Below the pieces are notes generated by a model. That model was not told the origin of the DNA and did no database searches. It worked only from the letters and a program-made list of their open reading frames with translations. Positions 23,898-25,162 of a stretch of 31,720 nucleotides of DNA are shown piece after piece (positions within the stretch are counted from its first letter, which is position 1; the number at the start of each line of letters is the position of its first letter). This DNA is from Escherichia coli (GTDB lineage: Bacteria > Pseudomonadota > Gammaproteobacteria > Enterobacterales > Enterobacteriaceae): assembly GCF_003334385.1 (NCBI RefSeq), contig NZ_QOWN01000053.1; one strand, 5' to 3'. A program made the translations under genes and the position numbers.

Positions 23898-24980
23898 TTA
23901 CCCCCTGAAACCCGGCGGAATTTCGGTGTCCGGTTCAGAAATGTGATTCACGCAACGCAGGCTGACTGCGCCAGCCTTCGGCAGCGACCACGGATTTTCG
24001 AAATTCCTGTTCGGGCCAAAAAACGTCGATGCCTGCTGAACAAATTCAGTTCCCGCTTTCCCGGTAGCCTCCAGGTATCTTGCGTAACGCCTCACGCCAT
24101 CCAGCACGACATCCGGTGACACCCCTTCGCGTAATCTGGCCCTCCAGGCATTGAACGCGGATTTCTTCGGGTTTGACCCTGCCCGATGCGGATATTCACG
24201 CCAGACCCGTTCGAACACGTCAGGATAATCAACTCGTCCCGCAGACGGTCCCGGCATCGCCCGGGTTAACCCAATCGGCTTCCCGCTCATCGCGGAATCG
24301 GCTTCAGGCTGCTGCGGTTGGCGTTGTTGCTCCGGTTCGACGATCAGCACCTGCTGCACACAACGCCCGGAATCTGCTTCCGGTGTCGTGCCATCTGGTC
24401 CTGGACGTTCAGTCAGAACAGGACAAAAATCCCCCTGTGGGTCCGTGGCGATTTTTTCGCCATGGACCAGAAGGGTTTTATCCCTTTCCTGTTCCTGTTC
24501 CTGTTCCTGTTCTTGGCTTGAAAGGGGCTCTGAAGGGGCTTCAATTTTCCGACATGATTCACGTCTGACATCCAGGTGGAAATCATCCTTATATCTATCA
24601 TAAAAGGATGATAAAAAAGGATTTTCCAGCAACACGGAATATTCATTTCTTACCCCAGCACAACGGTTATCGCCAGGTTTCAGCGATTCACCAACCTGCC
24701 ATGCTGCCATTTCATGCACCCATACAACCTCAGAATCATGGTCATAGCTGCAAAAACCAGCCTCGCAAGCCATTTGAAGCCCCTTAGAAGCCCCTTCAGG
24801 ATCAAGTCCGGTTTCGTGAGCAATGTACAAAACAGGCAGGTAATAAAGGCCCAGCATATTGGAATGAGGCGAGGTCATCATATACAACGCCACTACCATA
24901 CATTCCGGACCAGACTTCCTTAGTTTTCGCCCTGTATCGCCTAACCAGAACTGAGGTGAAATTGTTGCGTAATTACGCAT
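23898..24980 (-). CDS. Replication initiator (lambda O analogue, 360 aa) with internal repeat tracts
   Basis: Position between cII and the DnaC-like gene; internal (TTCCTG)n tract encoding (EQ)n; a 98-bp segment has repeated copies just upstream of the gene. Confidence 0.6.
   Translation of the reverse strand: MRNYATISPQFWLGDTGRKLRKSGPECMVVALYMMTSPHSNMLGLYYLPVLYIAHETGLDPEGASKGLQMACEAGFCSYDHDSEVVWVHEMAAWQVGESLKPGDNRCAGVRNEYSVLLENPFLSSFYDRYKDDFHLDVRRESCRKIEAPSEPLSSQEQEQEQEQERDKTLLVHGEKIATDPQGDFCPVLTERPGPDGTTPEADSGRCVQQVLIVEPEQQRQPQQPEADSAMSGKPIGLTRAMPGPSAGRVDYPDVFERVWREYPHRAGSNPKKSAFNAWRARLREGVSPDVVLDGVRRYARYLEATGKAGTEFVQQASTFFGPNRNFENPWSLPKAGAVSLRCVNHISEPDTEIPPGFRG
24487..24513. repeat. Hexanucleotide tandem repeat (TTCCTG) x4.5 inside the initiator gene
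   Basis: ttcctgttcctgttcctgttcctgttc, coding EQEQEQEQE on the minus strand. Confidence 0.8.
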
Positions 24981-25010
24981 AGTCCCCTCGCATACAAGAT
25001 TTACTCCATA

Positions 25011-25162
25011 CCGCAGACGGTCCCGGTATCTCCCGGGTTAACCCAATCGGCTTCAGGCTGCTGCGGTTGGTGTGACTGCACATTGGTGTGACTGCACATC
25101 TTCACAGACGGTCCCGGTATCTCCGGGTTAACCCAATCGGCTTCAGGCTGCTGCGGTTGGTG
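25011..25162. repeat. Two tandem direct copies (about 60 bp, period about 92 bp) of an internal initiator-gene segment, just upstream of its start
   Basis: ACAGACGGTCCCGGTATCTCCCGGGTTAACCCAATCGGCTTCAGGCTGCTGCGGTTGGTG at 25011-25071 and 25103-25162 matches 24239-24336 inside the gene; GGTGTGACTGCACA duplicated between the copies. Confidence 0.8.

What the first reader, a model, noticed from the sequence alone, without database searches (positions are those of the whole stretch)
24239..25162. Tandem partial copies of an internal initiator-gene segment upstream of the gene, plus an in-gene (TTCCTG)n tract
Two direct copies of about 60 bp, period about 92 bp, lie just upstream of the O-like start and match a segment inside the gene that codes for ...QQPEADSAMSGKPIGLTRAMPGPSAG. 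Inside the gene a TTCCTG x4.5 tract encodes an (EQ)n linker. These could be origin iterons, scars of recombination between initiator alleles, or slippage-prone tracts that vary linker length.
Basis: seen in the sequence. Interest (0 to 1): 0.45.

Follow-up and report, generated by a model that had tools for sequence, protein, structure and literature searches.

The report
Unstable duplicated linker DNA beside initiator gene
The repeats are real, but they look like an unstable leftover duplication of DNA coding for a floppy linker of a prophage replication-initiator protein, not the replication origin; better candidates for the origin's binding sites are 11-base repeats elsewhere in the same gene.

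Summary
The initiator gene lies on the minus strand (23898-24980). Two head-to-tail copies of 60-68 bp (25011-25074 and 25103-25170) match an in-gene segment (24239-24331), and (TTCCTG)4.5 at 24486-24512 encodes (EQ)4.

Both tracts vary in length among near-identical relatives (POCJ13-like Stx phages and E. coli prophages). There are 0, 1, 2 or 3 upstream units and 3, 4, 5 or 7 EQ units. The 16-bp spacer repeat occurs 1, 2 or 5 times, and the reading frame over the array is not kept. One lineage lost the gene's 5' part by crossover between an upstream copy and the in-gene copy.

Homologues with a 73-80% identical N-terminal domain have no upstream copies. The in-gene segment codes for a hypervariable linker that is frame-shifted relative to other alleles. 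I read the array as a lineage-specific partial duplication that now behaves as a minisatellite, not as iterons.

A better iteron candidate came out of the analysis. It is the 11-bp unit GAAGGGGCTTC, present as tandem pairs at 24776-24797 and, inverted, at 24521-24542, on either side of an AT-rich stretch. This layout is conserved at DNA level in 13 lineages, as far as alpha-proteobacteria, and is always followed by a hexamer-repeat tract. Binding and origin function are untested.

The parts
23898..24980 (-). Replication-initiator gene in the lambda-O position (360 aa). It has an N-terminal winged-helix-like domain (aa 1-~140), an (EQ)n tract, a variable linker, and a C-terminal domain whose last 24 aa resemble the DnaT C-terminus.
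   Evidence: ORF. PHROG 1701 'DnaD-like helicase loader', full length, E 2e-151. No Pfam match. AF2 model with pLDDT 85.9 and winged-helix topology. Foldseek hits are weak (E >= 0.012); those checked are winged-helix proteins (CRP, MarR, Rrf2, GntR families). DnaT tail match E ~1e-4.
24239..24331 (-). In-gene copy of the repeat ('long form', 93 bp). It encodes ...EQQRQPQQPEADSAMSGKPIGLTRAMPGPSAG in the inter-domain linker.
   Evidence: It is homologous at DNA level to the linker of other alleles but frame-shifted over ~20 codons (-1 nt, then +1 nt). It is absent from the 73% group.
25011..25074 (-). Proximal upstream copy (short form, lacking 23 bp). It ends 31 bp before the initiator ATG.
25103..25170 (-). 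Distal upstream copy (short form, one G fewer). Its 5' homology extends further, to AGCAACAAC.
25067..25098 (-). 16-bp tandem repeat (TGTGCAGTCACACCAA x2) forming the spacer between the upstream copies. It is itself variable in copy number (1, 2 or 5 in relatives).
   Evidence: TRF, the repeat finder D4. Protein variants P0002 (5 copies) and P0004 (1 copy).
25001..25219 (-). 72-aa ORF spanning the array, annotated 'hypothetical protein' (phrog_2751). Probably not a conserved protein-coding gene.
   Evidence: Relatives have 42-, 72-, 88- and 102-aa versions and frame-shifted versions. The ORF is broken in L006, where the unit is 113 bp.
24486..24512 (-). (GAACAG)4.5 on the coding strand, i.e. 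(TTCCTG)n on the + strand. It is a hexanucleotide microsatellite encoding (EQ)4 and begins 9 bp downstream of site B.
   Evidence: TRF. There are 3, 4, 5 or 7 units among close relatives. A dipeptide-repeat tract sits at the same place in distant homologues.
24776..24797 (-). Site A: two tandem 11-bp units (GAAGGGGCTTC TAAGGGGCTTC) encoding EGASKGL, the predicted recognition helix. Candidate initiator-binding iterons.
   Evidence: TRF period 11. Synonymous codons are identical in 76% of comparisons inside the site against 41% outside, among pairs below 70% aa identity. It is also the local peak of synonymous identity. Helix 61-73 in the model.
24521..24542 (+). Site B: two tandem 11-bp units of the same motif, in inverted orientation relative to the gene (encoding EAPSEPL). 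Relatives have 2-3 units. The orientation is inverted in most of the distant lineages sampled, direct in the 73% and 78% E. coli groups, and mixed in L089.
   Evidence: Inverted repeat I1.
24589..24648 (.). The most AT-rich stretch of the gene (GC 0.27-0.28). It overlaps a 13-nt inverted repeat (24582-24612) and lies between sites A and B. Candidate unwinding element.
   Evidence: (I9). The lowest-GC window lies between the two sites in 11 of the 13 lineages.
23151..23891 (-). DnaC-like helicase loader immediately downstream.
   Evidence: NCBIfam PRK12377 at 488 bits, above its cut-off. PHROG 50.
25234..25530 (-). cII-like gene immediately upstream of the array.

Best explanation
The two upstream copies are a lineage-specific partial duplication of about 93 bp of linker-coding DNA from the initiator gene. 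The copy was placed by illegitimate recombination into the spacer between cII and the initiator gene. It has since behaved as a minisatellite.

Inferred mechanisms:
- Unequal crossover or replication slippage between copies changes the unit number (1-3).
- The same processes change the number of 16-bp spacer repeats (1, 2 or 5).
- Slippage between the two GAAGCCGATT decamers adds or removes a 23/24-bp block, giving the 'long' and 'short' forms.
- Crossover between an upstream copy and the in-gene copy deletes the 5' two-thirds of the gene.

I infer that the array has no sequence-specific role in replication and that the ORF over it is not a conserved protein.

The in-gene (TTCCTG)n tract is a separate matter. 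It is an in-frame hexanucleotide microsatellite that changes the (EQ)n linker length by slipped-strand mispairing. It belongs to a deeply conserved layout of the gene: an 11-bp pair, an AT-rich stretch, a second 11-bp pair in either orientation, then a hexamer tract. That layout is the more likely replication origin.

What is shown and what is inferred:
- Shown: the anatomy, the polymorphism, the deletion chimera, the absence of upstream copies in homologues, and the DNA-level conservation of the 11-bp units.
- Inferred: that the array is neutral, the mechanisms of length change, and that the 11-bp units are initiator-binding sites.
For: 1. Length polymorphism on a nearly invariant background.
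- Among 38 close loci, 29 have 2 upstream units and 6 have 1. One (L006) has 3 long units, one (L005) has none, and L027 has a point mutation in one of its 2 units.
- (EQ)n is 3 in 10 loci, 4 in 18, 5 in 7 and 7 in 1 of the 36 loci that share the intact architecture.
- The N-terminal 432 nt are at least 97.9% identical across these loci.
- In complete E. coli genomes, 47 of the listed rows have 2 copies, 8 have 1 copy, 3 have the deletion and 1 has 3 long copies.
- Protein clusters of 42, 72 and 102 aa correspond to 1, 2 and 3 units.

2. Single-copy variants are of two chimeric types (L003 against L004), so there were at least two independent contractions.

3. L005 joins the left part of an upstream short copy to the right part of the in-gene copy (GGGCGATGCC). 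It lacks the whole N-terminal module, and PGAP calls the gene a pseudogene.

4. The reading frame is not conserved. The L006 unit is 113 bp, which breaks the ORF, and P0004, P0008 and P0010 are frame-shifted.

5. Homologues with a 73-80% identical N-terminal domain have no upstream copy and different upstream genes.

6. The in-gene segment lies in a hypervariable linker.
- It is missing from the 73% group.
- It is frame-shifted relative to the 78% group and L007, while the DNA stays alignable.
- Indels of 24 bp recur at the decamer repeats.

7. The 11-bp motif is absent from the upstream array, and no AT-rich stretch adjoins the array.

8. The last upstream copy can be lost by homologous recombination only through the crossover that destroys the gene. 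Retention of at least one copy is therefore expected without any selection (inference).
Against: - Every intact locus of this lineage keeps at least one upstream copy, and two diverged sub-lineages (short form, and long form in L006) both keep arrays.
- Each unit holds a perfect 10-bp palindrome (GGGTTAACCC) and CCCGG-N5/6-CCGGG arms. The arms are also kept in 78% alleles despite a different loop and reading frame.
- Each unit holds GAAGCCGATT, which resembles the inverted 11-bp unit GAAGCCCCTTC. The full in-gene copy GAAGCCGATTC matches 9 of 11 positions.
- The array and the in-gene copy bracket the candidate origin core almost symmetrically, at about 215 and 200 bp.
- All loci with the array are close relatives, so sequence conservation cannot separate neutrality from function.
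- Nothing here was tested experimentally.
Confidence: 0.65

Rival explanations
1. The upstream copies and the in-gene copy are auxiliary cis-acting replication sites, either weak initiator-binding sites or sites for a host factor. They would flank the origin core, by analogy with P4 crr or SPP1 oriR, and copy number would tune initiation.
For: - The units bracket the candidate origin core at about 200 bp on each side (coordinates).
- Each unit contains palindromes and GAAGCCGATT, which resembles the inverted 11-bp unit.
- At least one copy is kept in all intact loci.
- The CCCGG/CCGGG arms are kept across diverged alleles.
Against: - There are no upstream copies in homologues with the same DNA-binding domain.
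- The in-gene segment is absent from the 73% group.
- The same linker DNA is present in an allele with an unrelated N-terminal domain and no 11-bp units (L007).
- One to three units, and both short and long forms, are tolerated.
- The exact 11-bp motif is not in the array.
Confidence: 0.13
2. The array matters as translated sequence. The upstream ORF would act as a leader ORF whose termination next to the initiator's ribosome-binding site couples or regulates initiator translation, and the repeats would only set its length.
For: - In most loci the ORF starts 15 nt after the cII stop and ends 20 nt before the initiator ATG.
- The 90-bp units keep the frame in the 42-, 72- and 102-aa versions.
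- Frame-shifted versions stop at a TAA that overlaps codons 2-3 of the initiator gene.
- It is a recognised PHROG, phrog_2751.
Against: - In L006 the first ORF stops inside the first unit.
- The peptide sequence differs entirely between frames.
- The initiator gene has its own GAGGGG ribosome-binding site.
- The ORF is known only from E. coli, with 10 clusters in 5.8 billion proteins.
- The leader RNA folds no better than shuffled sequence (z = -0.65).
Confidence: 0.08
3. The direct repeats are retained because they act as homology arms. They would let the cassette of N-terminal domain plus origin be exchanged between phages that share the linker and C-terminal module.
For: - The repeats flank exactly the module that differs between alleles (the N-terminal domain with its 11-bp sites).
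- The linker and C-terminal part are shared at 82% identity or more with many other prophage initiators.
- Crossover between the arms is documented (L005).
Against: - Exchange with another phage needs homology on both sides in both partners, and only this lineage has the upstream arm.
- The one documented outcome is a deletion that destroys the gene.
- Selection for evolvability is weak and cannot be separated from the neutral-scar reading.
Confidence: 0.08
4. Assembly or sequencing artefact.
For: None. Tandem repeats can in general be collapsed or expanded by assemblers.
Against: The same structure is seen in more than 100 independent records, including complete genomes and isolated phage genomes.
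Confidence: 0.01

Closest known systems
Minisatellite/VNTR arrays and partial-duplication scars at mosaic junctions of lambdoid phages
   Same: Head-to-tail copies. Copy number varies among near-identical genomes. Contracted variants are chimeric, and a deletion has occurred between dispersed copies. The location is a module boundary (cII module against replication module).
   Different: The duplicated DNA comes from inside the adjacent gene, so one copy is coding and the others lie in the leader. Three nested repeat systems coexist (90/113-bp unit, 16-bp unit, 23/24-bp block).
Lambda ori iterons inside gene O, and the 6-iteron variants in 933W-type Stx phages (Kozlowska et al. 2020, PMC7466680, listed; lambda details from established knowledge)
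   Same: The gene occupies the O position. The region sits in DNA that codes for an inter-domain linker, and repeat number changes linker length.
   Different: The finding's units are 60-113 bp long, not 19 bp. They are G+C-rich, partly outside the gene, absent in homologues and not tied to the DNA-binding domain. There is no sequence or Pfam relation to lambda O.
Second cis-acting replication regions that repeat initiator sites away from the origin: P4 crr (two ~120-bp direct repeats) and SPP1 oriR versus oriL in gene 38 (established knowledge; SPP1 oriL context in PMC5737612)
   Same: A segment related to DNA inside or near the initiator gene is present again, as direct repeats, elsewhere in the replication region.
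   Different: In P4 and SPP1 both regions carry the same short initiator-binding boxes. Here the conserved 11-bp motif is not in the array, and the array is dispensable across the family.
In-frame coding microsatellites changed by slipped-strand mispairing
   Same: (GAACAG)n is perfect, in frame and varies from 3 to 7 units among close relatives.
   Different: It is not an on/off contingency locus, because the unit is a multiple of three. A dipeptide-repeat tract ((EQ)n, (EK)n, (VQ)n or (GQ)n) is kept at the same position next to site B in most of the lineages sampled down to 46% identity, which is unusual for a microsatellite.

Membership tests
Origin iterons (lambda-ori type), applied to the finding's ~60-bp repeats | Short (about 11-22 bp) units repeated several times at regular, helically phased spacing | tested here: not met
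   Units are 60-68 bp (short form) or about 85-93 bp (long form). Periods are 90-91 or 113 bp, and the third copy is 770 bp away.
Origin iterons (lambda-ori type), applied to the finding's ~60-bp repeats | An adjacent AT-rich unwinding region | tested here: not met
   GC is 0.55-0.63 across the array and 0.60-0.67 across the in-gene copy. The AT-rich stretch is 24589-24648, 260 bp or more from any copy.
Origin iterons (lambda-ori type), applied to the finding's ~60-bp repeats | Presence and co-variation with the initiator's DNA-binding domain in relatives | tested here: not met
   There is no upstream copy in the 78% and 73% groups. The in-gene segment is absent from the 73% group. The same linker DNA occurs with an unrelated N-terminal domain (L007).
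Origin iterons (lambda-ori type), applied to the finding's ~60-bp repeats | Specific binding by the initiator, and requirement for replication | not testable with these tools
   Needs EMSA or footprinting and an ori-plasmid assay.
Origin iterons, applied to the 11-bp GAAGGGGCTTC units (sites A and B) | Short units, tandem at one-helical-turn spacing, in clusters next to an AT-rich region | tested here: met
   There are two tandem pairs with an 11-bp period, 24776-24797 and 24521-24542, flanking GC 0.27 at 24589-24648.
Origin iterons, applied to the 11-bp GAAGGGGCTTC units (sites A and B) | Travels with the DNA-binding domain and is conserved as DNA rather than only as protein | tested here: met
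   The units are present in all 13 lineages of the N-terminal domain family (46-100% aa identity) and absent from L007. Site B is kept in either orientation and encodes different peptides. Synonymous codon identity is 76% inside site A against 41% outside (the pairs are not independent).
Origin iterons, applied to the 11-bp GAAGGGGCTTC units (sites A and B) | Bound by the initiator; replication starts there | not testable with these tools
   Inference only. The N-terminal domain has a winged-helix-like model.
Minisatellite / partial-duplication scar | Copy-number polymorphism among otherwise near-identical genomes, with chimeric contracted forms | tested here: met
   There are 0, 1, 2 or 3 units and two kinds of single-copy chimera. 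The 16-bp sub-repeat occurs 1, 2 or 5 times.
Minisatellite / partial-duplication scar | No conserved coding or structural constraint on the copies | tested here: inconclusive
   The frame is not conserved, and the leader RNA is not more stable than shuffles. However, all carriers are close relatives, so there is little power to detect constraint.
Coding microsatellite changed by slipped-strand mispairing, applied to (TTCCTG)n | Perfect short tandem units, with unit-number differences among close relatives that keep the frame | tested here: met
   TRF gives 100% matches. There are 3, 4, 5 or 7 units, giving 358-, 360-, 362- and 366-aa proteins.
Phase-variable (on/off) contingency locus | Repeat unit not a multiple of three, so that length change switches the frame | tested here: not met
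   The unit is 6 bp. The truncated variants seen (L025, L026) diverge in frame downstream of the hexamer tract, at '...DPQG'. This coincides with the G5/T5 runs at about 24425-24437, although the causal indel was not located.
Lambda O protein family | Sequence similarity to Phage_rep_O or lambda O | tested here: not met
   There is no Pfam hit at E <= 10. The best PHROG is 'DnaD-like helicase loader'.

The most novel reading that the evidence does not exclude
The initiator gene contains a previously undescribed type of phage origin. It would have four parts: a pair of 11-bp GAAGGGGCTTC units that at the same time encode the protein's own recognition helix; an AT-rich spacer; a second, invertible pair; and a hexamer-repeat tract kept as a DNA element (for example for unwinding or single-strand binding) rather than only as an (EQ)n linker. 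In this reading the 60-90-bp direct repeats that bracket the core at about 200 bp on each side are functional accessories, or products of origin activity, that tune replication in POCJ13-like Stx phages.
Probability: 0.15. Interest if true: 0.65.

Novelty: new member of a known kind. Interest (0 to 1): 0.4.

Why it matters
The array itself matters in three modest ways.
- It is a natural length marker (a VNTR) for typing POCJ13-like Stx and other E. coli prophages.
- It is a built-in source of prophage decay, because one crossover removes the initiator's DNA-binding half.
- It warns annotators that the 72-aa 'hypothetical protein' is probably not a gene.

The by-product may matter more. For this large, Pfam-less initiator family there was no origin candidate in the papers I could search. 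The family occurs in Stx phages and also reaches modules with an SF2 helicase and a Toprim primase. The conserved layout of 11-bp pairs, AT-rich stretch and hexamer tract gives a precise, testable origin prediction. It also raises an unusual case in which a binding-site-like motif and the recognition helix share the same DNA.

Tried and rejected
- Pfam on the gene and on a 21-member alignment of the N-terminal domain: no match.
- Rfam at E <= 1 over 23000-27000: only a chance miRNA hit.
- RNA structure of the leader and of single units: not better than shuffles (z = -0.65 for the leader; -2.1, -0.2 and -0.9 for the units). An RNA-switch reading was dropped.
- Promoter scan: no sigma-70-like site in the array.
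- Extra copies of GGGTTAACCC, GAAGCCGATT or the 16-mer elsewhere in the 31.7-kb window: none beyond the repeats themselves.
- A natural protein joining the MEQY... N-terminus to the C-terminal domain, which would have made the array a remnant of an older short gene: none among 5.8 billion proteins. L005 is a frame-shifted deletion, not an ancestor.
- Strict concerted evolution of upstream and in-gene copies: rejected. Five loci combine an L006-like in-gene copy with window-like upstream copies.
- Literature: the Eru replication-region papers (PMC8044961, PMC8951638) mention no repeats, iterons or origin for this module. Searches for POCJ13 and related phage names and for the motif strings found nothing relevant.
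- Foldseek against the PDB gave only weak matches (E >= 0.012). I therefore claim a winged-helix-like topology and no membership of a specific family.
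Full report
ANATOMY

The region is the early-right operon of a lambdoid prophage, read on the minus strand. The order is a cI-like repressor (25982-26689, +), cro-like (25647-25925), cII-like (25234-25530), a 72-aa ORF (25001-25219), a 360-aa gene in the position of lambda O (23898-24980), a DnaC-like loader (23151-23891) and a DUF1627/YdaW-like gene.

The 360-aa protein has no Pfam match. It matches PHROG 1701 'DnaD-like helicase loader' over its full length. Its C-terminal half matches PHROGs named 'replication initiation protein'. Its last 24 residues resemble the C-terminus of DnaT (E about 1e-4).

Two upstream copies (25011-25074 and 25103-25170) are 100% identical to each other over 41 nt. 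They match the in-gene segment 24239-24331.

- The in-gene copy has 23 extra bases between two GAAGCCGATT decamers.
- The upstream period is 90-91 bp.
- The spacer between the upstream copies is a perfect 16-bp x2 repeat.
- (TTCCTG)4.5 at 24486-24512 encodes (EQ)4.
- The palindrome GGGTTAACCC occurs exactly three times in the window, once per copy, and no shuffle reached the observed count.

The same structure is present in Shigella phages POCJ13 and 75/02 Stx, in Escherichia phages PhiR5_2 and phiSTEC1589-Stx1c, in 82 of 5426 complete E. coli genomes including O104:H4 strains, and in 31 IMG/VR contigs. It is not an assembly artefact.

WHAT THE RELATIVES SHOW ABOUT THE ARRAY

The N-terminal 432 nt of the gene are at least 97.9% identical across the close loci. 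On that background the array is strongly length-polymorphic.

- Most loci have two units. Six of 38 have one unit, and these fall into two different chimeric types, so there were at least two independent contractions.
- A 102-aa protein cluster shows three short units.
- E. coli 23CRST049 (L006) has three 'long' units of 113 bp that include the 23-bp block.
- The 16-bp spacer repeat occurs 1, 2 or 5 times (P0004, the window, P0002).
- The reading frame across the array is not kept. The 113-bp unit breaks it, and several clusters are frame-shifted. The annotated 72-aa 'hypothetical protein' (phrog_2751) is therefore unlikely to be a conserved protein.
- Three clonal wastewater genomes (L005) carry a chimera. 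Its left part comes from an upstream short copy and its right part from the in-gene copy. Everything between, including the whole N-terminal domain, is deleted, and PGAP calls the gene a pseudogene. This is direct evidence that the dispersed copies recombine.

THE ARRAY IS LINEAGE-SPECIFIC

A scan of viral contigs with the N-terminal domain gave two further E. coli groups, with 78-80% and 72-74% identity. None of their 49 loci has any match between the 700 bp upstream and the gene. Their upstream genes are also different, YdaT-like and others.

At protein level the in-gene segment lies in a hypervariable linker, and the 73% group lacks it completely. At DNA level it aligns with the linker of the 78% group and with that of an allele that has an unrelated 'replisome organizer' N-terminus (L007). 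The window's allele is shifted by -1 nt and then +1 nt, so about 20 codons are read in another frame (SAMSGKPIGLTRAMPGPS against SAIQREADRVVPENTGQS). Blocks of 24 bp bounded by GAAGCCGAT repeats come and go in different alleles.

The duplicated DNA therefore codes for a poorly constrained linker. It travels with the C-terminal module, not with the DNA-binding domain.

These facts argue against the iteron reading and for a partial-duplication scar that has become a minisatellite. The junctions are sharp...GAATTTCGCC|AGCAACAAC... on one side and ...GTCTGCGG|TATGGAGTAA... on the other.

Retention of at least one copy needs no selection. The last copy can be removed by homologous recombination only through the crossover that destroys the gene. 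This point is an inference.

A BETTER IRON CANDIDATE FOR THE ORIGIN, IN THE SAME GENE

The repeat finder had also reported a 23-nt inverted repeat (24522-24544 / 24774-24796) and an 11-bp tandem repeat. Both are pairs of the unit GAAGGGGCTTC.

- Site A (24776-24797) is direct and encodes EGASKGL.
- Site B (24521-24542) is inverted and encodes EAPSEPL.

All three exact copies of AAGGGGCTT in the 31.7-kb window lie in these two sites.

Site A is at the same place in all 85 loci of the N-terminal family. Site B is present in the 78% and 73% groups in direct orientation, with 2-3 units. The replisome-organizer allele has none.

I then fetched DNA for eight distant homologues with 46-64% aa identity, including Rhizobium, Enterovirga and metagenomic sequences. 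All thirteen lineages have the 11-bp pair at gene nt about 178-205 and a second cluster at about 436-472. The second cluster is mostly inverted and is one direct plus one inverted unit in Enterovirga. In 11 of the 13 the lowest-GC stretch of the 5' part of the gene lies between the two sites. In the 12 lineages where it could be read, the sequence CGAAGCCAG and a hexamer-repeat tract encoding (EQ)n, (EK)n, (VQ)n or (GQ)n follow site B.

Among pairs below 70% aa identity, codons for identical amino acids are themselves identical in 76% of comparisons inside site A, against 41% outside. GAA, GGG and AAG are invariant (the pairs are not phylogenetically independent). Within E. coli, site A is also the local peak of synonymous identity.

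An AlphaFold model of residues 1-165 (pLDDT 85.9) has a winged-helix topology. EGASKGL lies in the helix at the recognition position (61-73). Site B and the EQ tract fall in a low-confidence segment. Foldseek matches are weak, and those I checked are winged-helix proteins.

In Enterovirga and in one metagenomic contig the domain is a free-standing protein of about 210 aa. In Enterovirga it is followed by an SF2 helicase and a Toprim primase, and in the metagenomic contig by a Toprim primase. The domain thus behaves as a portable origin-recognition module.

I infer, but cannot show, that sites A and B with the AT-rich stretch are the origin. This follows the lambda principle of an origin inside the initiator gene.

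THE (TTCCTG)n TRACT

The tract varies by whole units among close relatives, with 3, 4, 5 or 7 units. All combinations with array copy number occur, which indicates recurrent change.

It is in frame, so it alters linker length without switching the gene off. The truncated variants seen diverge in frame downstream of the tract, at '...DPQG', which coincides with nearby G5/T5 runs.

Its persistence as a dipeptide-repeat tract immediately after site B, across very distant homologues and with changing amino-acid pairs, is more than a casual microsatellite would show. Whether the constraint acts on the protein (a flexible charged linker) or on the DNA is open.

LOOSE ENDS THAT KEEP A FUNCTIONAL READING OF THE ARRAY ALIVE

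- Each unit has palindromes.
- The CCCGG/CCGGG arms persist in diverged alleles.
- The decamer GAAGCCGATT(C) resembles the inverted 11-bp unit.
- The array and the in-gene copy bracket the candidate origin core at about 215 and 200 bp.

I put about 0.13 on an auxiliary replication role. The leader RNA is not unusually structured, and no promoter-like site lies in the array.

LITERATURE

The papers on Stx-phage replication regions that I could read do not mention this module's repeats or origin. Searches for the phage names and for the motif strings found nothing relevant.

VERDICT

The array is an ordinary kind of thing, a partial duplication that has become a VNTR, in an interesting place. 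The more valuable result is the conserved 11-bp architecture in the same gene.

Noticed in passing
window 24776-24797 and 24521-24542, with 24589-24648 between: Two tandem pairs of the 11-bp unit GAAGGGGCTTC, one direct and one inverted, flank the most AT-rich stretch of the gene. The layout is conserved as DNA in 13 lineages of the N-terminal domain family, down to 46% aa identity, and absent from an allele with a different N-terminus. This is a candidate origin of replication.
   Followed up: yes
window 24776-24797 (aa 62-68): Site A encodes EGASKGL, which sits in the predicted recognition helix of the winged-helix-like domain. The putative binding motif and the recognition helix therefore share the same DNA.
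   Followed up: partly
window 25258-25285 (+ strand): A strong intrinsic-terminator-like hairpin with a T-run lies on the strand opposite cII, inside the cII 3' end. This is the position of lambda's oop antisense RNA terminator. No matching promoter was found by the simple scan.
   Followed up: partly
window 23898-23972 (last 24 aa of the initiator): The C-terminal tail (...RCVNHISEPDTEIPPGFRG) matches the C-terminus of primosomal protein DnaT (PDB 2ru8, 6aep, 9zbt; E about 1e-4). It is conserved in alleles with different N-termini. It may be the part that contacts the helicase or the loader.
   Followed up: no
window 24239-24305, compared with L039/L054/L069/L007: About 20 codons of the linker are read in a different frame from other alleles (-1 nt, then +1 nt) while the DNA stays alignable. 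Blocks of 24 bp bounded by GAAGCCGAT repeats are gained and lost in different alleles.
   Followed up: yes
L005 (E. coli SW071611, NZ_CM129855.1) 2000-2071: Crossover between an upstream copy and the in-gene copy has deleted the whole N-terminal domain and the candidate origin, leaving a pseudogene. The same structure is present in three clonal genomes.
   Followed up: yes
L089 (Enterovirga) 2501-5584; L095 1501-3098: The same N-terminal domain, with sites A and B and the hexamer tract, occurs as a free-standing ~210-aa protein. In L089 it is followed by an SF2 helicase and a Toprim primase, a layout like the Eru1 module described for Stx phages. In L095 it is followed by a Toprim primase. L089 also has two further motif copies just upstream of the start codon.
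   Followed up: partly
L025, L026, L037, L075 (IMG/VR contigs): Truncated versions of the initiator (188-211 aa). In L025 and L026 the frame changes at '...DPQG', which coincides with the G5/T5 runs at about window 24425-24437. These are either decaying prophages or sequencing errors.
   Followed up: no
window 24582-24612: A 13-nt inverted repeat (ATCATCCTTATAT / ATAAAAGGATGAT, 5-nt loop) overlaps the edge of the AT-rich stretch between sites A and B.
   Followed up: no
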